Shown here one piece after another: positions 10,384 to 28,104 of a stretch of 64,000 nucleotides of DNA (position 1 is the stretch's first letter; every line of letters starts with the position of its first letter). The notes under the pieces are model-generated. The model had not been told where the DNA came from and ran no database searches. It saw only the letters and a program-made list of their open reading frames with translations. Source of the stretch: Oceanispirochaeta sp. (GTDB lineage: Bacteria > Spirochaetota > Spirochaetia > DSM-2461); NCBI GenBank assembly GCA_963666275.2, contig CAXXOA010000002.1, positions 1,152,001-1,216,000 of the forward strand, given 5' to 3'. Position numbers and translations under genes: made by a program.

Positions 10384-10447
10384 GCTAAGATCCAAATAGG
10401 CTGCGCAGCGGCCCGGCCAGGGGCTGATTGGGCCTTGCAGGTTCTAC
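10384..10447 (-). repeat. Degenerate attC-like site
   Basis: ctaagatccaaataggctgcgcagcggcccggc resembles ataacatcaaaatatgctgcgcagcggcctggc at 21751; TAG stop of the upstream gene is followed by AAC. Confidence 0.5.
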
Positions 10448-13023
10448 TGAATCTTAATCCTGTATAGGCCCGATGGTGTGCCGAAAATAACACCATCGCT
10501 GACAGGAACTAATTCAAAATCCGCCTTTTCCAGGTACTCCCGAACCCTGGGGTCTTCGATCATGGCATACAGGTTCCAGTCCTTCCAGGTTTTGCCTCCG
10601 TCATGACTCAGATGCAGGAGCACCGTATTGTTATGTATATTATGTATGGTGGGATTATACTCCCAGATCGCCATATTGTTACCGGACACGGCAAATGTGG
10701 GATGATCCATGAACACCCTGACAGGAACGCCTATGGATTCCCAGGGATTAGTCTCACCATAGGCCATTGTATTCCTTCTGTAGGGATAGAAGAGGAATCC
10801 GTTGGAACTTCTCTGTGAGTATATGGCGTATACATAATCACCTGTAGAGGCAAACCTGCTGGAGTGGGGAGTGAAAGACAGTTCCGCTTCATTTTTGCGG
10901 TTATTATCTTCCCTGATATATTCCCAGTTCTTAACGGTGCTGTCAGCGGCGTAGTAGGAGCGGTAATCTTTATTAATCATTATCGTGTCTCTGAAAAACT
11001 GCAGATTCCCGACCTGCATGGCTGAAAAGGGCAGGTTGTCCACTTCAGAAAAGGTACGGCCCAAATCCTCACTCAGATAGATTTTATCATTGACTCTCAG
11101 GACGATACGGTCGCCCCGAATATCAATGTTATGATCGGGTATAAACCGGCGGTTAAACTGAACAAACAGCCGGTTCAGCAGATCCAGGTATTTCCCGGCT
11201 TCTCCGTCATCCTGAAAATTGCCGTCCGAATTGTGTGCCGCAAAGATCAGATCCTCTATAACAGGGATGTCCCCCGGTTCAAGCCCTGTCTGTGAACTGG
11301 TGCCGTTCATAAAATGGAACGGAGCTTCCTGCCAGGTTTTTCCCCTGTCTGTGGATATTTCCAGGTGGCGGCGATTGTCCGACTCTATATCCAGACCGGT
11401 CCACTCTTCATCGTAGCGCTGCCAGGTATTCCCTCCGTCCAGGCTCCTTTCCCAGGGATAGTTCCTGTCCAGGGGAGCCGGCCGGTACAGGATTGTTCTG
11501 TCATGCCTGTCCTGTATCTCCCGTTCCACTGGCATGTAGGCTATCAGCTGGGTCCGGCCGTCGGGATCAGAGCTTTTCATATGTTTGAAATAATCAAGAT
11601 CATTTTCAACATTATATGTTTTGTGCTCCCATGTGTCTCCACCGTCATGGCTGACGCTGATATATGCCAGTCTCTCTCTGTACTCTTCTATATCGTGAAC
11701 GCCCCAAATATTTCCCAGAGCCGGCCGGGACCTTTGCAATTTCAGAACAATCTCATCTCCAGCCAGGCGGCTTACCTCCCAGGGATGCCATCCTGCGGGA
11801 AAATCGGTCCCGTTATCGATAGCTCTGAATGTTTCACCCCTGTCCCGGGACAGAAATAAACCTGCTGTTCCGCCCACAATAAGGGTGTCCCTATTTCTAA
11901 CGGCAACCCGGATGTCGCCCTTGAGGCCATGGGTCCCCTGGCTGATAATCTGCCACTCTTCGTTACCGGGATTATAGAGAGCGGCAGACGTATAATCGTC
12001 TGCAAAAAAGGAGATATAGTCTCCTGAATAGTACTGGTATCTGCCTTTGACGGGGGGAGTGATAAGGGCGGGAGCTTCTCTACCGGAAGGATTCCAGATG
12101 GCTGCCCTTTCTTTTCCATCAAATAGTATTTTGCCTTCAAATAAAGCCTTGGCTCTGAATTCTCCGTCCATTCCGAATGGGATTTTCCCAAAGGCCGTAT
12201 TCTCATCCCTGGTATGAAACAGCCATGTTTTTCCCCGGTCCGAACTATAGGCGTCGATGGCTCCGGTAATGAGGATCTGTTCGCCTTCAATATAGATATG
12301 ATCTGTCACCATCATGGCGTACTGGTCAAAGCGGTAGGAGCCGTCGGGGCGTTTCGTGTTCGGCAGCAGGGTATGAGTCCAGGTTTTTCCCCGGTCCCGG
12401 GAGAGTGCTATATACTGATCAAAGGTTGTTATCAGCAGGTCTCCGTCAGAGCCGTAACCCATAAAGTTCGGCTGGCTGTCCATTTTATACAGAACCGGCA
12501 GGGGTCGGGCATCTACTTCAAATATCTTTTCAAAAAGCCACTCTTGTTTGGGCTCCGGTTCCTTTTCGGGGAGACTTCTCAGCCCCGCCTCCACCAGATT
12601 TACAGCAAATCCGCACTCCCTGCCGAAGTGACCGTCTGCGGTTTCATAGAGCGCCCCGCCGGAGAACATATTATTCCTATCGGTCCTGTAGCTTCCCTGC
12701 AGTTTCACCCAGCCCTTCAGGACGCCGTCCATATTCAGATAGACTTCTTTTTCGCCGGCTTTGTAATTCAGGCTGTTGTTGCTGTTCAGGTCCTGTTCGG
12801 GGATATACATTTTTGCTCCGGGGTATCTTTCAGATCCCAGAACAATCCAGGTCTGCCGTTTGCCCCCCACCGACGTCTTTTCAATTTCCATGGTATTAAA
12901 AGTTATGCGGGAAGGGATTTCCTCTCGGGAGCGGATTCTTGTACCAGATGACTTTGTACCATTGGAGGTACAGGAAAGGAACAAGAGAATAAGAGTAAGA
13001 ATCAGATATCTGGTACGTTTCAT
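10444..13023 (-). CDS. BNR/Asp-box repeat (sialidase-like beta-propeller) lipoprotein
   Basis: Eight S-x-D-x-G-x-T-W/F boxes; MKRTRYLILTLILLFLSC lipoprotein signal with GGAG RBS. Confidence 0.8.
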   Translation of the reverse strand: MKRTRYLILTLILLFLSCTSNGTKSSGTRIRSREEIPSRITFNTMEIEKTSVGGKRQTWIVLGSERYPGAKMYIPEQDLNSNNSLNYKAGEKEVYLNMDGVLKGWVKLQGSYRTDRNNMFSGGALYETADGHFGRECGFAVNLVEAGLRSLPEKEPEPKQEWLFEKIFEVDARPLPVLYKMDSQPNFMGYGSDGDLLITTFDQYIALSRDRGKTWTHTLLPNTKRPDGSYRFDQYAMMVTDHIYIEGEQILITGAIDAYSSDRGKTWLFHTRDENTAFGKIPFGMDGEFRAKALFEGKILFDGKERAAIWNPSGREAPALITPPVKGRYQYYSGDYISFFADDYTSAALYNPGNEEWQIISQGTHGLKGDIRVAVRNRDTLIVGGTAGLFLSRDRGETFRAIDNGTDFPAGWHPWEVSRLAGDEIVLKLQRSRPALGNIWGVHDIEEYRERLAYISVSHDGGDTWEHKTYNVENDLDYFKHMKSSDPDGRTQLIAYMPVEREIQDRHDRTILYRPAPLDRNYPWERSLDGGNTWQRYDEEWTGLDIESDNRRHLEISTDRGKTWQEAPFHFMNGTSSQTGLEPGDIPVIEDLIFAAHNSDGNFQDDGEAGKYLDLLNRLFVQFNRRFIPDHNIDIRGDRIVLRVNDKIYLSEDLGRTFSEVDNLPFSAMQVGNLQFFRDTIMINKDYRSYYAADSTVKNWEYIREDNNRKNEAELSFTPHSSRFASTGDYVYAIYSQRSSNGFLFYPYRRNTMAYGETNPWESIGVPVRVFMDHPTFAVSGNNMAIWEYNPTIHNIHNNTVLLHLSHDGGKTWKDWNLYAMIEDPRVREYLEKADFELVPVSDGVIFGTPSGLYRIKIQ

Positions 13024-13074
13024 ACTATCTCCATTTGAATAAGGGGATTCCACATAACGGATTATTTTTCTAGC

Positions 13075-13104
13075 CTGGAGGTTAAAAGCCTCCGGCTACC
13101 CGAT
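13075..13104 (+). mobile_element. 30-bp 3' remnant (domain VI) of the group II intron
   Basis: ctggaggttaaaagcctccggctacccgat, identical to 26011-26040. Confidence 0.85.
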
Positions 13105-14193
13105 AAAAATGGAATTCTTTAGCGTTTCCAATAATTCTACATTGATATATATTTTTTCTCTTCCAATTTTGTATTCACTTAAAATACCAATATCTTGTAA
13201 TTGACTTAAATACCTTGAAGCTGCCTTTCTTTCTACTCCAAGAACTTTTGTTAAAAACTCTATTTTACAATATGGGTGTACAAATAATTCTTCGATCAGT
13301 TCTTTTGAATAAATCTTGGGTAATTCATTTCTGACTCTTTCGATTGTTTTATCTAATAATTCTTTTATCTTAAGAACTTTATTTATAGTTTCTTTAGCGA
13401 CTATTTCTATACCTTTCAGAATATAGATTATCCATTCTTCCCAATTTTCATTACTTGTAACACTGCGAAGTAATCTGTAATATTCTGCTTTATTCTTTAT
13501 GATATATGAGCTTAGATATAAAATTGGTATATCAAGATAATTTTTTAGTATCAGATATAAGATATTAATAATTCTACCCGTTCTTCCATTTCCGTCATAA
13601 AATGGATGAATTGATTCAAATTGATAATGAATTATCGCCATTTTTGCTAATGAATCATCAGCATCATTTAAATACTCAACGGTGTTACTAAATAGCTTAT
13701 TTATGACACCTTCACTTTGGGGAGGAGTATATACAACTTCTCCCGTTTTATCATTTACCAATGAATTTCCTGGTGTTTTTCTGATTCCGGCATCATTTTT
13801 TTGTAATTCGATCTGTATTTCAATAATATCATTAACAGAAAGAAATCCTTTTTCAACTATTTTATTAAAGCCCGAATATAGTGCTTCTCTATAATATATT
13901 ACTTCTTTAGTAGCAGAATCATATTTTTTCTGGTTTCCACTTATCGCTTTATATAGATCATCTTGTGTTGTTATTATATTTTCAATTTCCGAGCTATCTT
14001 TTGCTTCCTGGAGAATTATTGCATTAATTAAAATTGATTGATTGGGGATTATATTAGCAATACCTTTTAATTCTGCTATTGCTGACCGTGCTTTATTTTC
14101 TTGTTTTAATATTTTTATCGTTTCTATTTTGTTTGTGTCAGGCGGAAGTAGAGGGAGGTCATTATATGGCTTCGTTGGTATGAAATTTCTCAT
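13096..14193 (-). CDS. Fic/DOC-family AMPylase (class II-like, N-terminal inhibitory motif)
   Basis: HPFYDGNGRTGR catalytic motif; SSEIEN inhibitory motif; PYNDLPLLPP N-terminus; start probably 14193 or 14202. Confidence 0.9.
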   Translation of the reverse strand: MRNFIPTKPYNDLPLLPPDTNKIETIKILKQENKARSAIAELKGIANIIPNQSILINAIILQEAKDSSEIENIITTQDDLYKAISGNQKKYDSATKEVIYYREALYSGFNKIVEKGFLSVNDIIEIQIELQKNDAGIRKTPGNSLVNDKTGEVVYTPPQSEGVINKLFSNTVEYLNDADDSLAKMAIIHYQFESIHPFYDGNGRTGRIINILYLILKNYLDIPILYLSSYIIKNKAEYYRLLRSVTSNENWEEWIIYILKGIEIVAKETINKVLKIKELLDKTIERVRNELPKIYSKELIEELFVHPYCKIEFLTKVLGVERKAASRYLSQLQDIGILSEYKIGREKIYINVELLETLKNSIFIG

Positions 14194-14313
14194 ATGTCCC
14201 ATTATCGCATTATTTGGTACGCAATTCAATATTGTGTACCATTTATTTAATTTTTGGTACACATCTAAACTATATGTCCTTATTTTTAAGAAAATATCCC
14301 ATTTCCATTTTCC

Positions 14314-14478
14314 ATTTAACACCAAAATATGCTGCGCAGCGGCCTGGCTTGCCAGGTATAGGCGCTTTTCTTGCCCCTTTATTCTAAACAACTATTTCTT
14401 ATTTGGGAATTATTTATGGTTAACAGAAGATTTTCTGGTATGAAATATGACAATGGGAAAGACTGATGCATTAGCTTG
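14314..14478 (-). repeat. Long attC site (interrupted; its R'' end lies at 14912-14917)
   Basis: R' GTTAAAT at 14320-14314; internal blocks ggcctggc, caggtat, ttcttgcc, atgacaat and tgcat colinear with the attC at 17806-17979; ends in ...tgcattagcttg like the intron 5' exon ...tgcaaatccttg. Confidence 0.7.
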
Positions 14479-14640
14479 ATACTTATTAAGGGCTCCCCGG
14501 AGAATGATAAAATATAAGAGTCATTTACCATCAAGGAGGTGTCCTATGACATTCTATACTAAGCAGCATAAGTATTACTGCGGAATAGATCTCCATACCA
14601 AAGTGATGTATCTCTGTATTATGGACCAAACAGGTGAAAT
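14479..14640 (+). pseudogene. IS110/IS1111-family element left end and transposase 5' fragment
   Basis: RBS AGGAGGT, ATG 14546: MTFYTKQHKYYCGIDLHTKVMYLCIMDQTGEIL, matching the N-terminal GID motif of DEDD transposases; truncated. Confidence 0.75.
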
Positions 14641-14911
14641 ACTGGGAATTCCGAAAGATTTTGCCATTATCACCGGTGCCAGTTGTAAATCCTATTGGCA
14701 TCTCTCCAAGTCTTACGCTACCAATGCAGCTATGTCCAATAAATGGCTGGAAGAGCAGGGATTGGTCAATATCAAATATCTGTGGTGTAAAGCCCAGGGA
14801 TATATCTGATCAAATCAGGATTTCGTTTGCTCCATGGAGTGAACCGCCCCGTGCGGACCCGCATGCGGGGTGGTGTGGGGGCTGGAGGTTTAAAGCCTCC
14901 GGCTACCCGAT
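14641..14911 (+). mobile_element. 271-bp 3' fragment of the group II intron (maturase C-terminus plus domains V-VI)
   Basis: Matches 25770-26040 with two visible substitutions. Confidence 0.93.
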
Positions 14912-14918
14912 TTATGTT

Positions 14919-16016
14919 TCATTCATTATCCAGCAAAGCATTCAATAATGAGAAGTTAAGTTGCACTGCTTTTGAATCAATGCTTAAATAATTATTTATA
15001 TTGGCCCAAACGTTATCTAAATTGTTCAAATCTGTATCCGTAAATGTGATGTAATTTATGTTATATTTTGACCAATACTTTTTATGTTTAATCATTTCCT
15101 TTTCATATTGTAGGTAAGCATCTTTTTCAAGTTCTGTTAAATTCTTATTTTTTCCTTTTAGTTTCATATGTGTTGATGATGGTGAGATTTCAAAACCAAT
15201 TTTATCCATACTCCATGGATTAATTATAAGAAAATCTAATCTATATTTATGCTTTTTCTTAAATGGATCATATCTTAGTTCGGGAATTAACACTGGAATT
15301 GATTCTGGAGTACCATGATTTTTTACATAATCTATATATTTTGAGTAAATTGATATTTGATATTTTGATCCAGTTCTTCTTACAAGATCATACAGAAATT
15401 GCAAAAGGTCGACCAATGTAGAAAATGTTCTCTGATCATTTTGATTCATATAACAAAATCCTGTTTCCAATGCATGACCAAGAGTCCAGTATGGTTGCTT
15501 GAAATGTCTTATTTCGGATTTATCATTTTCCCAAGAATCATCTACAAATCGAGGAGAAATCAAAAAGCCAAACTCATCAGAATTATTTCCAAACCAATAT
15601 TCGCTTTCTTTTATAGTTGGTTTTACTTTATAATGTTCATCATAATGTTTAAGAAATGAACACTCCAAGAAATTCGATAAGTATTTCTTGAAATAGGGAA
15701 ACTTTTCACCAGAAATGATATCATAGAGGACTTTATGGGGAAAAATTAAGTCTGAATCTAGTGTATTTAGTTTTTCAGTGAGGCCTTCTATCCATAAGTT
15801 CATATATTCTGTAGGTGACTTTATAACTTCATGTTTTTGGTCAATGTATACACCAGCTTTAGAACCAATGTATGCATTCAAGGATTTCTCATTATCCATA
15901 TATGAAAACAATTTATTGGTCTCTATAAGAACAAAAGGTAGTAAATCTCTTCTTTGCTCTTTTAATTTTTTGATTCTTTTATTTCTTGCTGTTTTATTTG
16001 GATCTCTTTTTCCCAT
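14919..16016 (-). CDS. Hypothetical protein with C-terminal Vsr/DUF559-like (PD-(D/E)xK) nuclease motif
   Basis: IPELRY...YRLDFLII...GFEISPSSTH...YITFTD pattern; cassette gene ending just before R''. Confidence 0.55.
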   Translation of the reverse strand: MGKRDPNKTARNKRIKKLKEQRRDLLPFVLIETNKLFSYMDNEKSLNAYIGSKAGVYIDQKHEVIKSPTEYMNLWIEGLTEKLNTLDSDLIFPHKVLYDIISGEKFPYFKKYLSNFLECSFLKHYDEHYKVKPTIKESEYWFGNNSDEFGFLISPRFVDDSWENDKSEIRHFKQPYWTLGHALETGFCYMNQNDQRTFSTLVDLLQFLYDLVRRTGSKYQISIYSKYIDYVKNHGTPESIPVLIPELRYDPFKKKHKYRLDFLIINPWSMDKIGFEISPSSTHMKLKGKNKNLTELEKDAYLQYEKEMIKHKKYWSKYNINYITFTDTDLNNLDNVWANINNYLSIDSKAVQLNFSLLNALLDNE

Positions 16017-16048
16017 TTAGTTAGCTTCCTATATATATAATATACTTT

Positions 16049-17788
16049 TTAGTTATCAATGATTTCTGATATATACTTAATGATCGGTACTTCAAGAATT
16101 TCCTTTCCTTCAAGATTTGGTTGTAGAATTGTTTTCCAGTAGATGTTTGCATTATATGGCTTACCATGACTGGTTGATTCTGAAAATCTCAATTCTTCAC
16201 TAATATTTTCACTCATATGGGCAGGTTCAAATGTAGTATCATGAATTCTAAACAATCCTGCATTTGGAACATCTTTTGTCTTATCTAATTCAAATTGTTT
16301 GGAAATTGAACCTTGGATATTAGTATTGAAGGTCGGGTTCATTCTATCATCAAAATCAATAATTGATGTTCCATCTGTATCACAAATGACGTTATATTTT
16401 ATTGAGAATTGTGAAAATATTTTTTGATAAAAAGGTATATTTGTTACTGATCCACAGTTTAAGACAAATAAATCCTTTGCAGGATTCTTTTCTTGTAAAA
16501 AAGCTCTGATTATTATTTCTTCTGTAGGACCTTCAATGAGTATAACTTCATCAGCATAAAATGATTCGCATATATGTGGATTGAATCTTAGGATTTCATA
16601 CATTTCTTGTTTTAGCTCATAATCAGTTTTTATATCCTTAGCTTTTTTGAGAAATTTGTCATTAATCTGATAAACTTTCGTATTCTCATTTTCTTTAGAT
16701 AGACGAATGATAGATGATTTGGGTTGTGAAATATCAATCATTTGTGGAGAATGTGATGCACATAGAACTTGATATGGTAATTCATCTTTACTAACTTGAT
16801 AAATTAGATCTCTAAGTTCTTTTAGAATCCTTGGATAAAGAAACAATTCAGGTTCTTCGAATAAAACCATGTAGTCTTTTCTTCCAGGACTTCTTACAAA
16901 TTCCTCAGCAATGTCTCTCATCAGTAGTAGTGTAAAAATAGCAGCTCTTATAGTTCCATGGCCAATGGAAGAGATTGAAGTTGGCACATTAACATCAATT
17001 TCACCAGAATCACTTATTCTATTAAACTCTATATCAAATTCTTTACCTAACTTATTCTCAGTCCACATTACTCTAGATTTCTTATCAATTATGGAGAGAC
17101 TAGTTTCTGGAAAAAGCTTTTTGAAGTAACTGTTTATTGATTCTTGATAAGTATTAATCGTTTCAGGTTTGTACATTTTATCCTGTAGTTCAGCAATTTT
17201 TTCTCTAGCTGCTTTTAATTCAGCTAATTCAGACAACTTAAGTTTACTTTCCGCAATTGATTTCAAAATTTCATTTAATATACTTTTTACTTCTTCTTCA
17301 TTTGGCATTGCCTTTATAAAGATAGGTTTGGGCATACATGATTGAAATACCCTATGTAATCCTATCGAAGCATAACCAATATCAGCCCAATCATTTGCTG
17401 CGGGTTCCCAAGTAATAGCTTTTTTTGTAATTTTTTTATCTTTTTGAAATATTGATTTAATACGTAAGGAGTTTCCATTGATAAGATACTTTTTAAAACT
17501 CTCTTTCTGCTTCGGTGCCGCTTCTTGAATTTTTGCAATATCAATATCTTCTAATAAAACCTCAATTTCAAACTGCATTATGAGGTTATCATTCCTTTTG
17601 AAATAATCATCTTTATTTGGCGTACAGTCATTGTAAAAAAATTGATACGCTTGGAGAAATGTTGATTTGCCAGCATTATTCTGACCAAATATAAATAAAG
17701 TGTTTGTATCTTCAAAAATAATTCTATTGTTTTCTAAACCACCAGAAATTCCTCTAAAATTATCTATTGCAAAATAACTAATCTTCAT
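16049..17788 (-). CDS. OLD-family ATP-dependent nuclease (ABC ATPase plus TOPRIM)
   Basis: MKISYFAIDNFRGI, Walker A GQNNAGKST, Walker B LFEEPELFLYP, SHSP, TOPRIM ILIEGPTE and DTD; RBS AAAGGAG before ATG 17788. Confidence 0.88.
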   Translation of the reverse strand: MKISYFAIDNFRGISGGLENNRIIFEDTNTLFIFGQNNAGKSTFLQAYQFFYNDCTPNKDDYFKRNDNLIMQFEIEVLLEDIDIAKIQEAAPKQKESFKKYLINGNSLRIKSIFQKDKKITKKAITWEPAANDWADIGYASIGLHRVFQSCMPKPIFIKAMPNEEEVKSILNEILKSIAESKLKLSELAELKAAREKIAELQDKMYKPETINTYQESINSYFKKLFPETSLSIIDKKSRVMWTENKLGKEFDIEFNRISDSGEIDVNVPTSISSIGHGTIRAAIFTLLLMRDIAEEFVRSPGRKDYMVLFEEPELFLYPRILKELRDLIYQVSKDELPYQVLCASHSPQMIDISQPKSSIIRLSKENENTKVYQINDKFLKKAKDIKTDYELKQEMYEILRFNPHICESFYADEVILIEGPTEEIIIRAFLQEKNPAKDLFVLNCGSVTNIPFYQKIFSQFSIKYNVICDTDGTSIIDFDDRMNPTFNTNIQGSISKQFELDKTKDVPNAGLFRIHDTTFEPAHMSENISEELRFSESTSHGKPYNANIYWKTILQPNLEGKEILEVPIIKYISEIIDN

Positions 17789-17805
17789 TATTTCTCCTTT
17801 TGTAA

Positions 17806-17979
17806 ACATAACTATCTGATCACCTGCACCCCGGCCTGGCCGCAGGACAGGTATTGGCGTTCTTCTTGCCAACATGGTAAAACATCTCTACTATATTGAG
17901 AAGCGATTATTTACTATTGGGTTGGAATATCTGCAAGAAGCATGACAATAGGGGAGACAGGTGCATCAGCATGTTATGT
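17806..17979 (-). repeat. Intact long attC site (174 bp)
   Basis: Minus strand ACATAAC-atg-CTGATGCACCTG ... CAGGTGATCAG-ata-GTTATGT; arms complementary with one extra base on the R'' side. Confidence 0.85.
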
Positions 17980-18075
17980 GAGCGTCCTTGCAGCAGTTTT
18001 GCCCCGAGCGACGTATCACTTTCTAATGTTAATAATCAGATTTCTCTCAGCAATTGCTATAAGTTGGGTATAAGT

Positions 18076-18525
18076 TTGAAGATTAAAAATATCATCACAA
18101 TTGTTACGGTATTAATATTACTCTCGATTTTTGGATATAAAGAAATTCAGAAGAAAATTGCTCTAAAGTATATACAGACAAGATCTTTCCAAGTAAGCAC
18201 AATTAGTGATCTATCTGGGAATTTTAAAAGAATAGATAATGATTACTTTTCGGATTGGATAAATTTTATACTGAAGGAATCAGAAATAAGTGAAGATGCT
18301 CCTGAGAAAGGAGAATTGCATCCTTTTGTAATAGTTCATTTCACCACGAATGATAAATACTCTGTTTTTGTAAAAGTCGATACTAAACGAGATAAAGTTT
18401 ACTCACACATTTATAAATCCAGAGGTGCACCTGTCTTGAATCTAGTATATTCGGAACAAAACGAGGAACATACATATGAAATGTGGAGTCAAATGATTAA
18501 TGAGATTCGAAATTTTGATAATTAA
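18076..18525 (+). CDS. Hypothetical membrane-anchored protein, antisense to the array
   Basis: Open frame with an N-terminal TM segment after a likely TTG start at 18076; the track start (17896) overlaps the attC. Confidence 0.55.
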   Translation: MKIKNIITIVTVLILLSIFGYKEIQKKIALKYIQTRSFQVSTISDLSGNFKRIDNDYFSDWINFILKESEISEDAPEKGELHPFVIVHFTTNDKYSVFVKVDTKRDKVYSHIYKSRGAPVLNLVYSEQNEEHTYEMWSQMINEIRNFDN

Positions 18526-18792
18526 ATTATGCTGCCAATAATGTCCGTTCTGTCTATTCATAGATTCTATGATGAGCTACTGTTAACTTAACTTTTTCAG
18601 CCAAGGGGTTATTCAATGGTGACAGAATATGACATTTCTAATATTCTACCTAGACTCACAGGGGCATTAAAAAAGATTTATGATAAAGTAAATCAAGCAT
18701 TAATAGCTGCCAAGTTCTCATAATATCTATTCTTTTTAGTGGAGATAAAGTAACCGTCAATTTCTTATGCCCTACGATGTAATCTGAATTCC

Positions 18793-19131
18793 ATGCACAA
18801 TTTCTACAAGGAGATTTACTGCATGGAAAAAAAAGACATTTGGAAACGAAAAATCAATGAATGGGAGAAGAGCAGTTTAAACCGAACAGAGTTCTGCCTG
18901 AAGAATAGCATCCCCGTTTCAACCTTCGACTATTGGAGAATGAAAATCCGCAAGGAATCAGCAGTAGAGAAGGAAAAAGGGCTTGTGAGGATTCCAGTAG
19001 TTTTGAAGGCGTCTACAGGAAGCCCATTTTCAATCGAATACCCCTCCGGGCATAAGATCAATATTCCATCAGATTACGATTCTCATTCGCTGATTCGTCT
19101 TGTCGCCGATTTAAAAGAGATCCTAAAATGA
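18793..19131 (+). CDS. tnpA: IS66 accessory protein TnpA
   Basis: W..SSL...EFC....I..STFDYWR HTH pattern; first ORF of the IS66. Confidence 0.85.
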   Translation: MHNFYKEIYCMEKKDIWKRKINEWEKSSLNRTEFCLKNSIPVSTFDYWRMKIRKESAVEKEKGLVRIPVVLKASTGSPFSIEYPSGHKINIPSDYDSHSLIRLVADLKEILK

Positions 19132-19475
19132 TTCCGGATTTTACCAGCATTCAAATCTACGTCAGACCTGGTATCACCGATATGCGGAAACAGGTCAATG
19201 GTTTATCCATTATCACCCAGGAGGAAATGGAACTTAACCCTGGTTCCGGTTGCCTTTTCCTCTTTTGCAGCCGGGACCGCAAGCTGATAAAGTGCATTTA
19301 CTGGGATCGCAACGGATTCTGTCTCTGGCAGAAGCGCCTGGAAAAAGGAAAATACCCCTGGCCGGATTCAGAAGAGCAAGCCAGGCAGATATCCCAGGAA
19401 CAGTTGAAAATGCTCCTGGAAGGTATTGACTTCTGGCATACTCATCAAACTCTCAGTTATGAAGAGATTGTCTAA
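19128..19475 (+). CDS. tnpB: IS66 accessory protein TnpB
   Basis: TDMRKQVNGL, LFLFC, WDRNGFCLWQKRLEKG. Confidence 0.92.
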   Translation: MIPDFTSIQIYVRPGITDMRKQVNGLSIITQEEMELNPGSGCLFLFCSRDRKLIKCIYWDRNGFCLWQKRLEKGKYPWPDSEEQARQISQEQLKMLLEGIDFWHTHQTLSYEEIV

Positions 19476-19516
19476 ACCATCTTCCCAATGGAATTCAAAC
19501 ATGTTAGAATTTTCTC

Positions 19517-21058
19517 ATGGACTTGGCGGAGATACAAAAATCACCAGAGAAAGCACTTGAACTCATCCAGAGTATGTCTGGTCAGATTGAGCAATTAACA
19601 GAAGAACTCCGCCTGGCTCTTCATCGCAAGTTTGGACGTTCCAGCGAGAAAATCGATCCTAACCAGAAGGAACTGTTTGAAGAAGAGGCTCCTTCTGAGG
19701 AAGAATTCGCAGCAGATGATCAGATAACAGTTCCCGCACATAGCCGAACAAAGGCAGGACGAAAGCCTTTGGACAGCAACATCCCCCGGGAGGACATCAT
19801 CCATGACATTCCCGAAGAGGAAAAGATCTGCGGCTGCGGGCATCAACTGGATAAGATTGATGAGATTGTCAGTGAAAGGCTTCAGCATATCCCCGAGCAG
19901 ATATACGTGGAGCGTCATATCCGTTACAAGTATGCCTGCCGGAACTGTGAGGGTTCCGGTGATGAAGACAAACCGGTTTTCAGAGTAGCCCCGGCGGCTC
20001 CTTCCATCCTTCCCGGTAGTATCGTTACTTCGGGGCTTTTAGCCTTTATCTTGGTGAATAAGTTCTGTGATCATCTGCCGTTTTACAGGCAGGAGAAGCG
20101 CTTTGAGCGTATCGGCGCTCATATCAGCCGCCAAGACATGTCCAATTGGACAAATAAATCAGCAGAAAGGCTCCAATTCCTTATGGATATGTTTAGGAAG
20201 AAGATCAAAGAAGGCCCTGTTATCCAGATGGATGAAACCACAGTGCAGGTTCTGGGAGAAGAAAACCGTCCGGACACCTCAAAATCCTACATGTGGCTTG
20301 CCCGGGGAGGGCCTCCGGACTCACCCCTTGTGATCTACGACTACCATGAAACAAGAAGTTCTCAGCATGCCAAGGCGTTTTTGGAGGGATATTCGGGATA
20401 TCTCCAGACTGACGGCTATCAGGCTTATGAAACGGCACTGGACGGCAACGAAGATATCATTCATGTCGGTTGTCTGGCACATGCCCGTCGGAAATTTGTA
20501 GATGCCGCGAAGGCTTCAAAGAAAGCCGGAAGCGCTCAAATTGCTGTAAAGAAAATCAGAGATATTTACCGGATTGAAAGTAATCTCCGGGATGAGCATT
20601 TGGATGATATGAAGTTCTTGAACAGGAGAAAAGAGCTGGTTCAGCCGCTTCTGGATGACCTCAAATCCTGGCTGGATGACAAGGCTGAAAAGGTTAGGCC
20701 GTCTACGGCGACGGGAAAAGCGATAGCCTATATCTTGGGCCAGTGGGAGAAAATCGTCCGTTTTATTGAGTCTCCCTACCTGACGCCGGATAACAATGCC
20801 GCTGAACGGGCGATTAAACCTTTTGTGGTTGGTCGGAAAAACTGGCTGTTCTCCGGATCTCCGAGGGGTGCTAAATCCAGTAGTCTCTTTTACTCTTTGA
20901 TTGAGACGGCGAAAGTGAATGATCTGAATCCCTATGGATATCTATGGTGGATATTCGATCAGGTCGCAGTCATGGAAGATGATTTTGACAAAGAAAAACT
21001 GCTTCCCTGGAACTGTGACCGGGAAGCTATTCAGAAAAGGGCTTTCAAGGGCCTGTAG
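19517..21058 (+). CDS. tnpC: IS66 DDE transposase TnpC
   Basis: FGRSSEK, zinc finger, HLPFYRQ, MDET, LQTDGY, CLAHARRKF, DNNAAERAIK. Confidence 0.95.
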   Translation: MDLAEIQKSPEKALELIQSMSGQIEQLTEELRLALHRKFGRSSEKIDPNQKELFEEEAPSEEEFAADDQITVPAHSRTKAGRKPLDSNIPREDIIHDIPEEEKICGCGHQLDKIDEIVSERLQHIPEQIYVERHIRYKYACRNCEGSGDEDKPVFRVAPAAPSILPGSIVTSGLLAFILVNKFCDHLPFYRQEKRFERIGAHISRQDMSNWTNKSAERLQFLMDMFRKKIKEGPVIQMDETTVQVLGEENRPDTSKSYMWLARGGPPDSPLVIYDYHETRSSQHAKAFLEGYSGYLQTDGYQAYETALDGNEDIIHVGCLAHARRKFVDAAKASKKAGSAQIAVKKIRDIYRIESNLRDEHLDDMKFLNRRKELVQPLLDDLKSWLDDKAEKVRPSTATGKAIAYILGQWEKIVRFIESPYLTPDNNAAERAIKPFVVGRKNWLFSGSPRGAKSSSLFYSLIETAKVNDLNPYGYLWWIFDQVAVMEDDFDKEKLLPWNCDREAIQKRAFKGL

Positions 21059-21081
21059 TTTTGACGGTTACGAGATAAATT

Positions 21082-21615
21082 ATGAAAAAAACTTTCTATT
21101 CTATTTTTTTCATTTTCATCATATTGATTCAATGTTTTAGCCAGGACTCTTCTGTAATTGATACACTAAAATCAGAATGGAGCAAGTATAATTATGAAGA
21201 AGAGGCTACTATTTGTAATCTTGAAATGAAGAGTATTGGGCAATATATATTCAGTGAAGGTTCTTTTAATATTAATCTGACAGTACAAGCTAATAAAAAA
21301 ATCTATTTCGAACTTAACAGATCTTGGGATCAAGAATTTTTAGAGGAATTTCCAGATGTACCAGTTCCTTACCTTTCTTTTTATGAGTTAAAGGAACCGT
21401 TTGAATCTGTACCGCCGTATATCTTAAATCAATATATTAAGGTTCGTCATAAGAATGTTAATTTTGAAAGTCCTGAGTATTTTGAGTTACAAAAGGATTT
21501 TCTTGATTACGTGACTCATTACTCAGGAACAGTCTTAAGAAAAAGTGAAATAGACTCATCCTTGTATATATATTATCCTCCCATTGATGAATTTATTCTG
21601 ATATGGGCTCCATAA
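21082..21615 (+). CDS. Hypothetical secreted protein, antisense to the array
   Basis: Signal peptide MKKTFYSIFFIFIILIQCFS; AT-rich. Confidence 0.65.
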   Translation: MKKTFYSIFFIFIILIQCFSQDSSVIDTLKSEWSKYNYEEEATICNLEMKSIGQYIFSEGSFNINLTVQANKKIYFELNRSWDQEFLEEFPDVPVPYLSFYELKEPFESVPPYILNQYIKVRHKNVNFESPEYFELQKDFLDYVTHYSGTVLRKSEIDSSLYIYYPPIDEFILIWAP

Positions 21616-21748
21616 ATGATGTCGATTTTGTCGGAAATATAATTACTTAACACAGCAGCGAAATTACACTGCCGATAATCGCCTATTCTATCACTTTAGA
21701 AATTTTTATTAACAGAATTATACTGAAAATTACGTATATTTTGAGTCC

Positions 21749-21807
21749 ACATAACATCAAAATATGCTGCGCAGCGGCCTGGCTTGCCAGGTATAGGCGC
21801 TTTGCTT
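21749..21807 (-). repeat. Truncated attC half-site
   Basis: R' GTTATGT at 21755-21749; about 50 bp near-identical to 14318-14368. Confidence 0.8.
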
Positions 21808-21876
21808 CCGACCCGTGCGGACCCGCATGCTCATTTGGTGTGGGGGCTGGAGGTTTAAAGCCTCCGGCTACCCGAT
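21808..21876 (+). mobile_element. About 69-bp 3' remnant (domains V-VI) of the group II intron
   Basis: cccgtgcggacccgcatgc..tggtgtgggggctggaggtttaaagcctccggctacccgat followed by ttatgt. Confidence 0.9.
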
Positions 21877-22761
21877 TTATGTGGATTTTTCAGGAATATA
21901 TTTCAACAATAATCCAAAATTTAACAGTCCAATTATTATTTGTAATATCACAATACCTCTTATTACCGAATTATTAGGTATTATATCTCCATATCCCGTT
22001 GTTGTACTTGTAACAAAACTAAAATACTGAAAATCAATAAAATTTAAATGATTTGATCTCTGGGAATGGATTTCTATCCATAATTCTGGAAACCGAGCTC
22101 GTAGATTTCGAAAATCCTTTTCTTTAGAATCAAAAATCTGCCGATGATTATTTACTTCTTTTTCTAACGCATTAATTTCTGATAATAATTCTGGGTCACC
22201 AAAAGAGGATAAATTTTTCAAAGCAAAATCAAAAATATTAATTCTTTCATTTGCTAATTCTAGTTTTAGTTCGGCAACTGCAACATCATGTTTGGCTATA
22301 TCTAGTACATTCTCTAAATTTAGCTTTTCATTTTGCAATATATTTATGTTACCTTCTATTTCAGATGTTCTTAATGTAACAAAAGAATCAATACCATCAT
22401 TTACTGTTTGGTTGTACCTAGTGCTTAATTCTTTCAACTCATTCTCGCTTTCAACTATTAATGCATCTAATTCTTCAATTTCGATAATTAACTTATTAAT
22501 TTCATCAATATATAGATTTATTTCGGATGAATATTCTAATAAATCTTTTTCTGAGATTTCCTTAGTTGAAAAATTATTCTCATAGGAATCTCGAATCATA
22601 TTTAAAGGATTCAGATTTATCTCATAATTATATAAAAAATTACACGGGTCATATTTGAAACAAGCAAAATATATTATTCCAAAAATGAACTGCATAATTA
22701 CAAAAGCCAATAAAAAGTTAATCCACTTATTCTGTTTATAAAATTCAGACATAGTTCTCAT
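21877..22761 (-). CDS. Potassium-channel-family (2TM pore) protein with a long coiled-coil insert
   Basis: YFSFVTSTTTGYGDIIP selectivity filter; TM helices at both ends separated by about 200 aa of heptad-rich sequence. Confidence 0.8.
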   Translation of the reverse strand: MRTMSEFYKQNKWINFLLAFVIMQFIFGIIYFACFKYDPCNFLYNYEINLNPLNMIRDSYENNFSTKEISEKDLLEYSSEINLYIDEINKLIIEIEELDALIVESENELKELSTRYNQTVNDGIDSFVTLRTSEIEGNINILQNEKLNLENVLDIAKHDVAVAELKLELANERINIFDFALKNLSSFGDPELLSEINALEKEVNNHRQIFDSKEKDFRNLRARFPELWIEIHSQRSNHLNFIDFQYFSFVTSTTTGYGDIIPNNSVIRGIVILQIIIGLLNFGLLLKYIPEKST

Positions 22762-22775
22762 ATTTTATCCTTCTA

Positions 22776-23951
22776 CTATTCACTAACATTAAAAAAAGAG
22801 GAAATAAGAATAACGTCCTCATCACTTAGAATATCGTTATGCTCTAAAAACACAGCCTCATCCAAAATATGAAAAACGGAAATGAATGCTTCATCATATT
22901 TTTGATTCATTGGAGCATCCGATTTTTGAAAATCATCAAAGTCACAGCTTTGCCATGACGTTATTGTTCTCTTAGTCGTTCTATTAGTAAAATACATCCT
23001 TAACCCGTTAATGGTATAGAATTTTGTAATCTTACTACATGTTTGAATAGATTTTATTGCACTACATTCTTTCTTATTAAGAAGATGTTCTTGTCTAAGA
23101 ATTTCATTTATTTTTGTTGTATCAATATATTGATTTTTTATTACGTAATTTATTGCTTCTGATTGTTTTTCAAAATCCATAAAATAGACATAATGTTGAA
23201 TATACAGCTCTGTATTTTTGTAATTCTTGATATGTTCTTCACCAATATATTTTGAAATAAAATTATCTGAATAAGCAGATGTTACTGTATCTCCAGTTCT
23301 ATAATATATCTCTTCATCATTAAGTAGTATTGGAAAAGGATCGATTGATAATCTCATAATTGCAACTGTTCCAATACAATCCTTTAAATACGATTCAAAC
23401 TTATTTGTAAATATATCATTATCTAGATAATTATGGTTAATAGAGTGATTTCTACTCGAATAAAATTTATCAAATCCTTGTTTATGGACGAACTTATTTA
23501 TTTTTTTCTTGGTATTGTCTATATGATCGAAAAAGAGTTGTAATTTCTCTTTTATATCTTTAAATACAGTTTCATTCGCTTCTAAGTATTTTTGCATTTG
23601 CTGATACATAGGAAAATGTTCTTCTGATTTCCATTTCTCAAGTTCATTGTTACTTTTTTGATCTTGATTTTCAATTATATACATCATAGTCATAGAGACT
23701 TCAATTGATTGTCTAAGTGAATAGTAGGCACAATCAAAATAACCTAATTCAAACAATGTAATAGCATTTTTTATCAGGTTACATGCTTCAACTATGAATG
23801 TATTTGCAATCCATGCATCTACTCGACCAGTATGACTTTGTTCAATATTTGCTATATCAATTATATAGTCTTTCTTAGACGCGAGTTCAATAGGTATTAA
23901 ATGTCCACTTTCTCTAAATTTCGTATAATCCATTCCATACCTTTTTTCCAC
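22776..23951 (-). CDS. Hypothetical protein, possibly HEPN-like
   Basis: 391-aa frame; AYYSLRQSIE...INKFVH helical pattern. Confidence 0.6.
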   Translation of the reverse strand: MEKRYGMDYTKFRESGHLIPIELASKKDYIIDIANIEQSHTGRVDAWIANTFIVEACNLIKNAITLFELGYFDCAYYSLRQSIEVSMTMMYIIENQDQKSNNELEKWKSEEHFPMYQQMQKYLEANETVFKDIKEKLQLFFDHIDNTKKKINKFVHKQGFDKFYSSRNHSINHNYLDNDIFTNKFESYLKDCIGTVAIMRLSIDPFPILLNDEEIYYRTGDTVTSAYSDNFISKYIGEEHIKNYKNTELYIQHYVYFMDFEKQSEAINYVIKNQYIDTTKINEILRQEHLLNKKECSAIKSIQTCSKITKFYTINGLRMYFTNRTTKRTITSWQSCDFDDFQKSDAPMNQKYDEAFISVFHILDEAVFLEHNDILSDEDVILISSFFNVSE

Positions 23952-24051
23952 ATAACGTCGATTTCACCTGTTCGTCGTAAATGGCGTAATTACTGCAAGC
24001 GAAGCTGAATAGCAGTAATTATGACATAGACGAATCTGGTGCAAATCCTTG
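23950..24051 (-). repeat. attC site split by the intron (R'' remainder at 26041-26046)
   Basis: Rejoined minus strand: ATATAAC-aag-GATTTGCACC ... GGTGAAATC-gac-GTTATGT with a central hairpin (taattactgc/gcagtaatta). Confidence 0.9.
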
Positions 24052-26040
24052 GTACGCCCGACATGGCAATAAACTTATGAGGTGAAAGTCCTCTACAGCT
24101 ACCCACGTATAGTAAACATGCTATACCAACTGTTAGCCGACGGCAAGGGCAATTCCGTGAGGAATTGTCTGGAGGAAGCCTGAGTGCAAAACCGGGAGCC
24201 CATGCACAAGAATGTGATAGAAGGCCCAGTTCCGGAGGCGAGTCAGCCAATGATGACGATGCCCCGTGGGTGAGGGATAGGGTAAATCACAGGGTTGTCC
24301 GGGGAATGTTTCTTGTCTTATTCGGGGAGATCTGTCTGCAAGGCGGTAACGTCGGTTTGACCGTGAGAATCCGGAGGATACCGGAGCAACAAGTCCAGGC
24401 CTATCAGGGGGTGACACTCTGATAAGGAGCCGTTTATACGGAACACAAAGAAGTCGTCACAGCGCTTCAAACCGGATGATACAGCGTCAGCAGGAGTAAT
24501 TCTACTGATAAGCGGACAGAAGTCAGCAGAAGGCATAGTAGCTAACGCCCGGAGTAATGTCCGGTTCATGGTGAAGGCCTGAACATTTCACAAGGAGGAG
24601 CCTTATGGTTCTCAAAGGAACAATTTCAGCTTATGCCGGAATCACTTTTGGCGGATCTTGGAGAAACCAGCCTTGAACGAATCTATGATGGCTTTGATTC
24701 TGTCGCAAGATAACATGCGTGATGCCTGGAAACGGGTCAAACGCAACGGTGGAAGTCCGGGGATTGATGATATATCAATCTCTCAATTTCCTGATTACCT
24801 CAAAAATCGGTGGCCAAGAATCAAACGAGCTTTGCTCAATGGGTACTATGTACCTTCTCCGGTGCTGAGGGTGGAAATCCCGAAGAAATCCGGAGGAAAA
24901 CGGATGCTGGGAATCCCGACAGTTCTAGACAGGGTTATCCAGCAAGCTATTTCACAGGTTCTGAACCCTATATTTGATCCGGATTTTTCGGAGTATAGCT
25001 ATGGTTTCAGACCGGGAAGATCGGCTCACGGAGCAGTGAAACAGGTAAACCAATATGTCAAATCCGGGTATAGATACGCCGTGGATCTGGACTTGGAAAA
25101 GTTCTTTGATACAGTGAATCATGATATACTGATGCATTTTGTGGCTGTAAAAGTCCGGGACAAATTTGTTCTCAGACTCATCGGCCGTTACCTGAGAGCC
25201 GGTATTCAGTTGGACAATGGAAAAGTGATTCCTACAGCAATCGGCACACCCCAAGGCGGGCCTTTATCACCTTTGCTTTCCAATATCCTCCTTGATCGGT
25301 TGGATATGGAACTGGAAAGAAGAAATGTACGGTTTGCACGGTATGCAGATGACACTATCCTTTTAACGAAGAGATTGTGTGATGCTAGGAAGATCCTAAA
25401 GGAAGTTTCAATATTTCTGGTAAGGAAATTGAAATTGGTAGTGAATCAGGGAAAAACGAAAGTTGCAAAGATAACGGAATGCAGCTTCCTGGGGTTCACA
25501 TTCAAGGGTAAGAAGATTCGCTGGACTGAGTCGTCTTTTGAGGATTTTCGGTATCAACTGAAATATCTGACAAGGCGTTCCTGGGGTGTTTCCATGGAAT
25601 ACAGAATCGGGAAACTCAATGAGTATATCCGGGGCTGGATGAACTACTATGGGATCTCCCAATATTACAGCCCTCTACAGAACCTTGATGACTGGCTCCG
25701 TAGGAGGATTCGCATGTGCTACTGGAAACAGTGGCGATATCCCAGAACGAAAGTCAGGAAACTGATGGAACTGGGAATTCCGAAAGATTTTGCCATTATC
25801 ACCGGTGCCAGTAGTAAATCCTATTGGCATCTCTCCAAGTCTTACGCTACCAATGCAGCTATGTCCAATAAATGGCTGGAAGAGCAGGGATTGGTCAATA
25901 TCAAATATCTGTGGTGTAAAGCCCAGGGATATATCTGATCAAATCAGGATTTCGTTTGCTCCATGGAGTGAACCGCCCCGTGCGGACCCGCATGCGGGGT
26001 GGTGTGGGGGCTGGAGGTTAAAAGCCTCCGGCTACCCGAT
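24052..26040 (+). mobile_element. Full-length group II intron, class C attC-targeting type (1989 bp)
   Basis: 5' GTACGCCCGACATGG; 3' domain V GAACCGCCCCGTGCGGACCCGCATGCGGGGTGGTGT and domain VI ending CTACCCGAT; inserted TTG/TTA in the attC bottom strand. Confidence 0.93.
24658..25938 (+). CDS. ltrA: Group II intron reverse transcriptase/maturase without endonuclease domain
   Basis: SPGID, RMLGIPTVLDR, SYGFRPGRS, DLEKFFD, GTPQGGPLSP, RYADD, FLGF, GWMNYY. Confidence 0.95.
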   Translation: MEKPALNESMMALILSQDNMRDAWKRVKRNGGSPGIDDISISQFPDYLKNRWPRIKRALLNGYYVPSPVLRVEIPKKSGGKRMLGIPTVLDRVIQQAISQVLNPIFDPDFSEYSYGFRPGRSAHGAVKQVNQYVKSGYRYAVDLDLEKFFDTVNHDILMHFVAVKVRDKFVLRLIGRYLRAGIQLDNGKVIPTAIGTPQGGPLSPLLSNILLDRLDMELERRNVRFARYADDTILLTKRLCDARKILKEVSIFLVRKLKLVVNQGKTKVAKITECSFLGFTFKGKKIRWTESSFEDFRYQLKYLTRRSWGVSMEYRIGKLNEYIRGWMNYYGISQYYSPLQNLDDWLRRRIRMCYWKQWRYPRTKVRKLMELGIPKDFAIITGASSKSYWHLSKSYATNAAMSNKWLEEQGLVNIKYLWCKAQGYI

Positions 26041-26550
26041 TTATATTTTATTTCTTTTATACCTATATCTAATCGATGAAGGAGTAAATCCCATTTTTTC
26101 ATAAAATCTAATCGCATCACTGTTGTTGGCAAATACAGATAAACGTATGTCATCTACACCTTTTTCATTGATCCAATCTAAGCCAAACTCGAATAATCTT
26201 TTTCCTATACCTCGATTTCTGAAATTTTTGGTGATAATAATATTTTCAATTGATGCATATTTTATTGGTATAAGATTTGTTATATTTGGTGTATCTAAAA
26301 TTTTAATTATAATTAATCCGAGGATTTCGCAATCTTTTTTGGCTATGAAATATGCATAATTAGACAGGTTGATATCTTTCTCAAGAGTTTCATCAGTTCG
26401 GCTATTATTTATTCCTGAGAAAATATCAGGATGAAGTAGATGGTGATAATAATCTCCTTCATCCAGCAGTTTCTTTATACCTTGTAAATCTTTTAATGAA
26501 GCGTTGTTTATTACTATTTCTTTGTTCTCTTCTACAATTGAACTCATCAA
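26041..26550 (-). CDS. GNAT-family N-acetyltransferase
   Basis: FRNRGIGKRL acetyl-CoA motif, N..AIRFYEKMGF. Confidence 0.9.
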   Translation of the reverse strand: MMSSIVEENKEIVINNASLKDLQGIKKLLDEGDYYHHLLHPDIFSGINNSRTDETLEKDINLSNYAYFIAKKDCEILGLIIIKILDTPNITNLIPIKYASIENIIITKNFRNRGIGKRLFEFGLDWINEKGVDDIRLSVFANNSDAIRFYEKMGFTPSSIRYRYKRNKI

Positions 26551-26969: not shown

Positions 26970-27078
26970 ATATAACGCCAAAATCACCTGCAGACCGTTA
27001 AGCTGGCGCAAATACTGCCGCGAAGCGAAAAGCAGTATTTGTGACAGTAGGGCTGTCAGGTGCATTTTCTGGTTCTAT
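26970..27078 (-). repeat. Intact attC site (109 bp)
   Basis: Minus strand ATAGAAC-cag-AAAATGCACCTG ... CAGGTGATTTT-ggc-GTTATAT; central aaatactg/cagtattt stem. Confidence 0.9.
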
Positions 27079-27970: not shown

Positions 27971-28104
27971 ATAGAACATTACTTATTATACTGTTCAGTA
28001 TAATTCAGCCCTTACTGCAGTGATAACTTCAAAATCCACAGTTATCTAGACATTTCTGCAGTATAACTACTCATATAATCCAGTTATACAGAACAGTATA
28101 ATAA
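27971..28104 (-). other. Candidate attI-like array entry site with nested inverted and direct repeats
   Basis: Core GTTCTAT (27977-27971) complements R'' ATAGAAC of cassette 1; no attC arms; TTATTATACTGTTC inverted repeat at 27983 and 28104. Confidence 0.55.

What the first reader, a model, noticed from the sequence alone, without database searches (positions are those of the whole stretch)
13052..26046. One group II intron has hit four attC sites, leaving a full copy and three 5'-truncated scars with a shared 3' junction
Seen: the intron end ...cctccggctacccgat occurs four times (ending 13104, 14911, 21876, 26040). Each is directly followed by the R'' remainder of a cassette (aaaaat, ttatgt, ttatgt, ttatat). 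Copy lengths are 30, 271, about 69 and 1989 bp; in the two shortest the adjacent attC arm is also lost. Established: IIC-attC introns reverse-splice into the attC bottom strand, and cDNA synthesis starts at the intron 3' end. Inference: the short copies are abortive retrohoming products (or later deletions) that destroy attC hairpins and so lock cassettes in place. The retained domain VI hairpin sits at the cassette stop codons and might serve as a terminator. This would be a retroelement-driven route to fixing or remodelling an integron array.
Basis: partly seen in the sequence, partly recalled or inferred. Interest (0 to 1): 0.85.

Follow-up and report, generated by a model that had tools for sequence, protein, structure and literature searches.

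The report
Decayed integron-targeting group II intron copies
A known kind of self-splicing mobile intron that inserts into the recombination sites of gene-cassette arrays has one whole copy and three worn-down tails here; the tails look like ordinary decay after insertion, helped by other mobile DNA, rather than a new way of locking genes in place.

Summary
The four intron ends are real, at the stated coordinates: one full group IIC-attC intron (24052-26040) and 3' relics of 271, 69 and 30 bp, in a cassette array with no integrase gene. They are one family, not one event: the genome holds 11 two-ended copies and 7 5'-truncated ones.

Each window relic shows change at the DNA level. 14641 is fused to the first 165 bp of an IS110/IS1111 element sitting at the same attC position. 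21808 descends from a copy whose catalytic domain V was already split by a ~42-bp palindromic repeat. At 13104 the R'' remainder is mutated, and the Fic gene's stop codon now lies inside the relic. Post-insertion deletion is therefore more likely than abortive retrohoming. No terminator was found.

Loss is 5'-polar here and in one congener (13 to 0), but not in all hosts (9 to 7 in one complete genome). Truncated introns in integrase-less arrays, and the incomplete-reverse-transcription idea, are already published, and this scan has noted similar relics on other DNA. New details: a spirochaete sublineage inserting at TTG/TT with a matching EBS1, and the intron-invading repeat.

The parts
13052..13074 (+). 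R' box (ACATAAC) and 16 nt of residual left arm of a destroyed attC (bottom strand)
   Evidence: sequence; pairs with the relic and its flank as a quasi-palindrome
13075..13104 (+). 30-bp intron relic (upper domain VI and 3' end); its antisense supplies the stop codon of the Fic gene
13096..14181 (-). SoFic-like Fic cassette gene; native stop inferred lost, reads three extra codons into the relic
   Evidence: Pfam, PADLOC, homologue ends
14314..14478 (+). long-type attC, complete up to the G of R'' (ends TTG)
   Evidence: profile search
14479..14643 (+). first 165 bp of an IS110/IS1111-type element inserted at TTG|; last 3 nt (ACT) shared with the relic
   Evidence: 98% identical to the full element at G000:C1:1295356(-); Pfam PF01548 and PF02371; joint
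14641..14911 (+). 271-bp intron relic (end of IEP gene, domains V and VI)
   Evidence: 2-3 differences from each of 9 full copies compared
14919..17875 (-). two-gene cassette: OLD-family ATPase/TOPRIM nuclease and an unknown 365-aa protein (the listed OLD start overlaps the attC and is probably too far upstream)
17806..17979 (+). intact 174-bp attC
18750..21071 (+). IS66 element with 8-bp target duplication, interrupting a cassette gene; the same IS splits intron copy G000:C3:190780
21749..21803 (+). left 55 nt of a long-type attC (rest lost)
21803..21876 (+). tail of the ~42-bp palindromic repeat (21803-21811) and 69-bp intron relic with disrupted domain V and intact domain VI
23950..24051 (+). 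attC 5' exon (R' to TTG) of the full-length insertion
24052..26040 (+). full-length group IIC-attC intron, GTACG...CCGAT, EBS1 loop CAAT, 32-nt domain V with CGC triad
   Evidence: Rfam RF02001 and RF01998
24658..25938 (+). intron-encoded RT/maturase, 426 aa, YADD, no endonuclease domain found; TTG start where most copies have ATG
   Evidence: Pfam; TIGR04416 above cut-off
26970..27078 (+). intact 109-bp attC
27975..28070 (.). attI-like array head, shared with the head of the intI-linked array and three other arrays; no intI here
   Evidence: the only intI above cut-off is at G000:C1:1063760

Best explanation
An endonuclease-less group IIC-attC intron family, actively spreading in this genome, reverse-spliced in full length into the R'' box (TTG/TT) of attC bottom strands exposed on the lagging-strand template (target and register shown; the chemistry is established for the class). 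The inserted copies then decayed as DNA: insertion sequences (IS110/IS1111, IS3, IS66) and a ~42-bp palindromic repeat landed in them, and deletions removed the 5' part together with part of the dead attC hairpin (elements at the joints shown; order of events inferred). The 3' tail tends to survive because it abuts the cassette gene's stop codon, while the 5' side borders 100-170 nt of dispensable, hairpin-forming DNA (inferred). The scars are permanently dead attC sites; no function of the scars is indicated.
For: Genome census: 11 two-ended copies, 7 5'-truncated, 0 5'-only; G003: 8, 6 and 0. Of these 13 breakpoints, 3 are at IS sequence (window 14641; C1:1049615 at an IS3 end; G003 at an IS66 end) and 4 at tails of the repeat (window 21808, C1:1034446, two in G003). 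At 14641 the right end of the intact IS reads AAT|TT, not the TTG|TT this intron's EBS1 can pair with, so the intron cannot simply have homed behind the IS. At 21808 the catalytic helix of domain V no longer folds. Two-ended copies with internal deletions, which simple abortive cDNA synthesis does not give, occur here (C1:1038005), in G001, G043 and G059, and as 36 of 169 elements in ten other genomes. The three shortest-type relics at 13104, C1:1032512 and C3:182668 lie at the far, oldest ends of their arrays. Stop codons lie a median 8.5 nt from the 18 3' ends. Introns occupy 18 of 27 junctions in arrays whose bottom strand runs with the leading strand and 0 of 6 in the one inverted array (Fisher p 0.0045, sites not independent).
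Against: 13 to 0 polarity is also what abortive cDNA synthesis predicts, and linear-intron retrohoming is known to give 5' truncation, 5'-exon deletion and microhomology joints (PMC3280974, in fly embryos). Six of 13 breakpoints, including window 13075, have no element at the joint. The 30- and 271-bp relics are 99-100% identical to live copies, so they are not old. The same derived domain V stands at three different attC sites, which needs gene conversion between copies or mobility of a damaged RNA. No orthologous locus with a full-length copy was found to show the before-state. Papers on RmInt1 describe the opposite polarity, loss of the 3' end (PMC4496777, PMC4181065). The stop-codon argument was not tested against selection.
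Confidence: 0.7

Rival explanations
1. Abortive retrohoming: the intron RNA attaches by its 3' end at R'', reverse transcription stops early, and repair joins the short cDNA to upstream DNA with loss of the attC arm. Could apply to some relics, most plausibly the 30-bp one.
For: Exact 3' junctions; 13 3'-only against 0 5'-only in G000 and G003; 79 against 24 in ten other genomes; such joints are seen experimentally for linear introns in eukaryotic cells; proposed for two relics in a Halorhodospira array (PMC7923331).
Against: No relic has a whole 5' exon joined to it; IS or repeat at 7 of 13 joints; domain V dead before truncation at 21808. 5'-only relics exist in G001 and G018. In the genome from which the query came (G317) the count is 9 to 7. 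The 79:24 count is biased: genomes were picked by a 3' end, and domains V-VI are probably easier to detect in divergent copies.
Confidence: 0.17
2. Selected scars: the retained domain VI tail is kept because it works as a terminator or 3' end for the cassette gene and fixes useful (defence) cassettes such as SoFic and OLD.
For: At 13104 the relic supplies the Fic stop codon and the flanks form an extended palindrome; SoFic and OLD match defence-system models.
Against: No terminator-like match at any of the four junctions; no U-tract after the hairpin; cassette-strand hairpin z only -1.0 to -2.3; relic lengths vary from 24 to 704 bp with no common breakpoint; the full intron already unpairs the R box.
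Confidence: 0.08
3. The 69-bp type is a short non-autonomous unit copied between attC sites, by gene conversion or by the intron protein acting in trans.
For: The same derived sequence ends at three attC sites in two arrays and a similar one in G004; multi-copy ORF-less mini-introns exist in other genomes.
Against: The three copies have different 5' breakpoints and differ at several bases; domain I, which recognises the target, is absent.
Confidence: 0.05

Closest known systems
Group IIC-attC introns of class 1 integrons (S.ma.I2 type; examined here: the ltrA introns behind dfrA14, arr-2 and blaIMP-4 in plasmid loci L005, L006, L254)
   Same: Antisense to cassettes, in R'' of the attC bottom strand; ends GTACGCCC...CGGCTACCCGAT; endonuclease-less IEP; groups with them against five other class C proteins (SH-aLRT 98).
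   Different: Only 48-51% protein identity; a separate spirochaete sublineage. Inserts at TTG/TT with EBS1 CAAT, not TTGT/T with ACAA; a second intron of this genome uses GTTA/T with TAAC. Chromosomal arrays, 18 ends in one genome.
5'-truncated introns in integrase-less arrays: UHB.F1 (IIC-attC), H.ha.F1 and H.ha.F2 (class E) (Sonbol and Siam 2021, PMC7923331)
   Same: 3' relics with domains V-VI in attC arrays; incomplete reverse transcription proposed as the origin.
   Different: Here many copies of one family allow breakpoints to be compared, and they point mostly to later deletion; relics go down to 24-30 bp.
[quoted passage not shown]
   Same: Fragmentation at either end, ascribed to incomplete reverse transcription or IS-driven rearrangement.
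   Different: RmInt1 relics keep the 5' part; these keep the 3' part.
attC-targeting IS1111 group (name recalled: ISPa21/ISPst6; only a search listing seen)
   Same: IS110-family transposase, long non-coding region at the right end, inserted in attC.
   Different: Here it uses the same G|TT position of R'' as the intron; I did not compare this with the published position.

Membership tests
group II intron, class C | ribozyme domain I motifs, short domain V with CGC triad, domain VI with bulged A, GUGYG-like 5' and AY 3' ends | tested here: met
   Rfam RF02001 113 bits and RF01998 58 bits; domains V-VI fold, z -5.0; ends GTACG and AT
group II intron, class C | RT/maturase with YADD and no endonuclease domain | tested here: met
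   RVT_1 and GIIM only; TIGR04416 400 bits, cut-off 300; YADD
group IIC-attC | inserted in R'' of the attC bottom strand, antisense to cassettes | tested here: met
   11 of 11 5' ends follow an attC arm; the empty site folds as attC
group IIC-attC | consensus junction TTGT/T (the majority form per PMC7923331) | tested here: not met
   10 of 11 copies TTG/TT and 1 GTTA/T, with matching EBS1 change; a TTA flank in 7 of 83 3' ends from other genomes
group IIC-attC | IEP in the IIC-attC clade | tested here: inconclusive
   one side of a 98-supported branch with 9 other attC-type proteins in an 18-row tree; with two distant outgroup rows the root fell among the spirochaete rows; no AU test run
group IIC-attC | splicing and mobility into attC; outward promoter Pout | not testable with these tools
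   promoter scan at chance level, 65 sites against 63.8 expected
CALIN (attC cluster lacking integrase) | several attC sites, no neighbouring intI | tested here: met
   6 junctions in the window, 2 intact; the only intI above cut-off is on another contig; but an attI-like head is kept
abortive target-primed retrotransposition product | truncated copy of an active element joined to an intact or resected 5' exon of the same target | tested here: inconclusive
   not met at 14641 (IS between) and 21808 (dead domain V); cannot be excluded at 13075
intrinsic terminator | GC hairpin followed by a U-tract on the transcribed strand | tested here: not met
IS110/IS1111 family (fragment 14479-14643) | DEDD transposase | tested here: met
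   the full copy has PF01548 and PF02371 above cut-off; the fragment is 98% identical to it

The most novel reading that the evidence does not exclude
A ~42-bp GNA-loop palindromic repeat of these spirochaetes repeatedly invades attC-homing introns (four independent positions in this genome, always in the intron's sense orientation, including the catalytic domain V), disables them and seeds the deletions that turn attC sites into permanent scars: a parasite of a parasite that sets the decay of integron arrays. I found no description of this repeat in one literature search.
Probability: 0.2. Interest if true: 0.55.

Novelty: new member of a known kind. Interest (0 to 1): 0.27.

Why it matters
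As it most likely stands, it is a clear, dense example of how attC-homing introns, insertion sequences and small repeats jointly erode chromosomal cassette arrays: 18 of 33 attC junctions of this genome carry intron sequence. It adds a spirochaete sublineage and three insertion registers within R'' that track the EBS1 sequence, which is useful for retargeting class C introns. If one-step truncation were shown, it would be evidence for LINE-like 5'-truncated insertion in bacteria; the data here do not show that.

Tried and rejected
Assembly artefact: rejected for 13075-13104; not directly testable for the other two joints with contigs.

Integrase-made deletion through a secondary site in the intron: it would join R' directly (AAC) to intron sequence, but the joints keep 16 to 48 more bases of arm.

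Relics as new attC sites: neither 13052-13115 nor 21749-21883 folds with an AAC/GTT R box plus an L box.

Universal 3' bias: not upheld.

An orthologous cassette with the before-state: the two closest Fic homologues (88% and 83%) carry no intron.

A heuristic attC scan was noisy and was replaced by a profile search.

Expression: no RNA holder listed. Literature searches for the combination attC, intron, excision, fixation and spirochaete found nothing; the search for the palindromic repeat gave only general MITE/REP papers, seen as a listing.
Full report
OBSERVATION. A BLAST of window 24052-26040 against the whole genome (G000, 5.27 Mb, 3 contigs; the window is C2:1152001-1216000) finds the four ends at 13104, 14911, 21876 and 26040, with lengths 30, 271, 69 and 1989 bp. 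The full copy is a group II intron: Rfam RF02001 and RF01998, an RT/maturase of 426 aa with YADD and no endonuclease domain found, and a 32-nt domain V with a CGC triad followed by domain VI. It lies antisense to the cassette genes. Its two flanks, joined, fold as a canonical attC bottom strand, and with the intron in place the R box is unpaired. Contigs from three runs of one sample span the 30-bp relic without differences and give about tenfold depth over the intron.

THE ARRAY. The window holds six cassette junctions: two intact attC sites (17806-17979, 26970-27078), one with the full intron and three scarred. Cassettes encode SoFic, an OLD-family nuclease with a partner, an ion-channel-like protein, DUF5677, a GNAT, DUF952 and a PIN-type pair. 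There is no integrase gene here; the only match above the TIGR02249 cut-off is at C1:1063760. A motif at 27975-28070 is shared with the head of that integron and three other arrays; I infer that it is attI-like.

THE FAMILY IN THE GENOME. There are 18 3' ends and 11 5' ends, and every 5' end belongs to a two-ended copy. So 7 copies lack the 5' end and none lacks only the 3' end. One two-ended copy has an internal deletion and one is split by IS66. Introns or relics occupy 18 of 27 junctions in the four arrays whose bottom strand is the G-rich (leading) strand, and 0 of 6 in the one inverted array. This fits priming at the replication fork by an endonuclease-less intron (PMC4424553, passages), but it rests on one contrasting array.

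CLASS AND REGISTER. The best plasmid matches after one Methylocalor copy are the introns of class 1 integrons, with the same ends. In an 18-row tree the protein groups with attC-type introns against five other class C proteins (SH-aLRT 98) and forms a sublineage with a Spirochaetaceae MAG protein at 81% identity. With two distant outgroup rows the root fell among the spirochaete rows, so monophyly is not settled. A spirochaete host is my inference from this neighbour. The junction is TTG/TT in 10 of 11 copies and GTTA/T in one divergent copy, against TTGT/T in the plasmid references. The EBS1 loop changes in step: CAAT, TAAC, ACAA, and CAAG in a Colwellia copy with a CTTG exon. PMC7923331 (full text parts 1-4 of 7 read; supplements not read) calls TTGT/T the majority site. 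Quiroga and Centron 2009, on target-site diversity, and Leon and Roy 2009 were seen only as reference entries, so this register may already be recorded there.

THE THREE RELICS. (a) 14641-14911. The attC arm is complete up to TTG (14478). Then come 165 bp that are 98% identical to the left end of a full IS110-family element at C1:1295356, itself inserted at TTG| of another attC. The joint has a 3-nt overlap, ACT. The intact IS ends AAT|TT, which EBS1 CAAT cannot pair with. The simplest history is a deletion from inside an IS to inside an intron, possibly across lost cassettes. (b) 21808-21876. Only 55 nt of attC remain. The relic begins in the tail of a ~42-bp palindromic repeat inserted in domain V; the whole insert survives in relic C1:1032295-1032512, and similar inserts occur in G004 and G021. 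The lower domain V helix no longer folds. I infer that such an RNA could not reverse-splice, so truncation came after damage in the DNA. (c) 13075-13104. R' and 16 nt of arm remain. The closest homologues end the Fic gene at this point; G007 reads ATT TAA C. The window reads ATT TTT and continues to a TAG inside the relic. The change lengthens a palindrome formed with the left arm, as template-switch mutation would (my knowledge). This relic could be either kind of product.

RELATIVES. Of 61 genomes searched, 14 match the 3' end and 11 the 5' end. In G003 (4 contigs) there are 14 3' ends and 8 5' ends: 6 truncated, none 5'-only; two breakpoints are at tails of the repeat and one at an IS66 end. 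Over G000 and G003, 7 of 13 breakpoints are at an IS or the repeat, 6 are unexplained, and none has a whole attC arm joined directly. Against a fixed polarity, 5'-only relics occur in G001 (two) and G018, and two-ended internal deletions in G001, G043 and G059. In ten more distant genomes chosen because they hold a 3' end, 145 3' and 90 5' matches pair into 26 full, 4 long, 36 mini, 79 3'-only and 24 5'-only elements; in G317, the source of one query, it is 9 to 7. Relics of this kind are therefore common, and the 3' bias is variable and partly a matter of detection.

MECHANISM. Shown: target, register, precise 3' junctions, the elements at the joints, strand bias. Established for the class: reverse splicing into the folded bottom strand. 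Inferred: full-length insertion first, then interruption and deletion. Also inferred: the 3' tail survives because stop codons lie a median 8.5 nt from it (18 ends, range -9 to 107; some ORF calls may be spurious), while the 5' side borders a dead hairpin. I put this at 0.7. Abortive retrohoming (0.17) remains possible for some relics, because linear introns give such joints in fly embryos (PMC3280974, passages). A terminator role is unsupported.

WHAT IS KNOWN. Truncated introns in integrase-less arrays and the incomplete-reverse-transcription idea are in PMC7923331. Fragmentation by incomplete reverse transcription or IS action is described as general in PMC2504315 (passages). RmInt1 relics lose the 3' end (PMC4496777 and PMC4181065, passages). 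PMC3522654 (passages) counts many fragments and gave nothing on polarity in the passages seen. S.ma.I2 separates a gene from its attC and blocks transcription from Pc (PMC3001079, part 1 of 6 and passages; PMC8876359, passages). Earlier unchecked notes of this scan describe similar relics in other genomes, including 5' pieces; a look-up by sequence and one in this genome found nothing.

THE REPEAT. A profile finds 35 copies at E<0.01 in the genome; 12 lie in intron copies, which make up 0.5% of the DNA. These represent four independent positions (two in domain I, one in frame in the IEP gene, one in domain V), spread by copying of the intron. All inserts seen in introns have the intron's sense orientation. 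This is the least explained part of the locus; one literature search gave no match.

VERDICT. A real, dense but ordinary case: a new member of the IIC-attC kind with decay products. Interest 0.27.

Noticed in passing
window 41272-41312 and 41507-41545; G000:C1:1032411, 1038216, 1038324; G003, G004, G012, G021: A ~42-bp repeat (CTGGTC, GNA-loop hairpin, TGCTCG...ATGC), 35 copies in the genome, inserts into other hairpin repeats and into introns, in frame in the IEP gene of 5 of 11 copies, with an imperfect 6-7 nt duplication; its enzyme is unknown.
   Followed up: partly
window 27975-28070; G000:C1:1063335, C1:1288085, C3:205209, C3:279770: Five arrays share an attI-like head while only one has intI, suggesting satellite arrays served in trans by one integrase.
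   Followed up: partly
G000:C1:1293900-1295356 (L250): Full IS110/IS1111-type element inserted at the same G|TT of R'' that the intron uses, with about 330 nt of non-coding DNA at its right end (a candidate guide RNA).
   Followed up: partly
G000:C1:1046145-1048118: A second, divergent intron (71% protein identity) with EBS1 TAAC inserts at GTTA/T, a third register in R''.
   Followed up: partly
L135, L153, L154, L165, L130 (genomes G317, G318, G323): Multi-copy ORF-less mini-introns of 600-730 bp with both ends and shared deletion joints (15 of 35 elements in G317, 5 of 7 in G318), probably moved in trans.
   Followed up: no
G000:C3:187455, 269704, 273680: Three intron copies share a further 101-bp insert with a 9-bp duplication near the end of domain I; the copies are mosaics of two sequence types, suggesting recombination among them.
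   Followed up: no
window 24658: The window's copy starts its IEP gene with TTG where most copies have ATG.
   Followed up: no
window 10386-10419: A short attC-like piece lies behind the BNR-repeat gene 10444-13053, which may be a domesticated last cassette (weak match, E 0.13).
   Followed up: no
L043 (G003:C2:97525) and L037 (G003:C2:1656889): In G003 the same intron family also sits after a terminator-like hairpin and inside an IS66, that is at non-attC sites.
   Followed up: no
G000:C3:182600-182668: The 24-bp relic is preceded by a piece resembling an inverted attC fragment, a sign of fold-back rearrangement.
   Followed up: no
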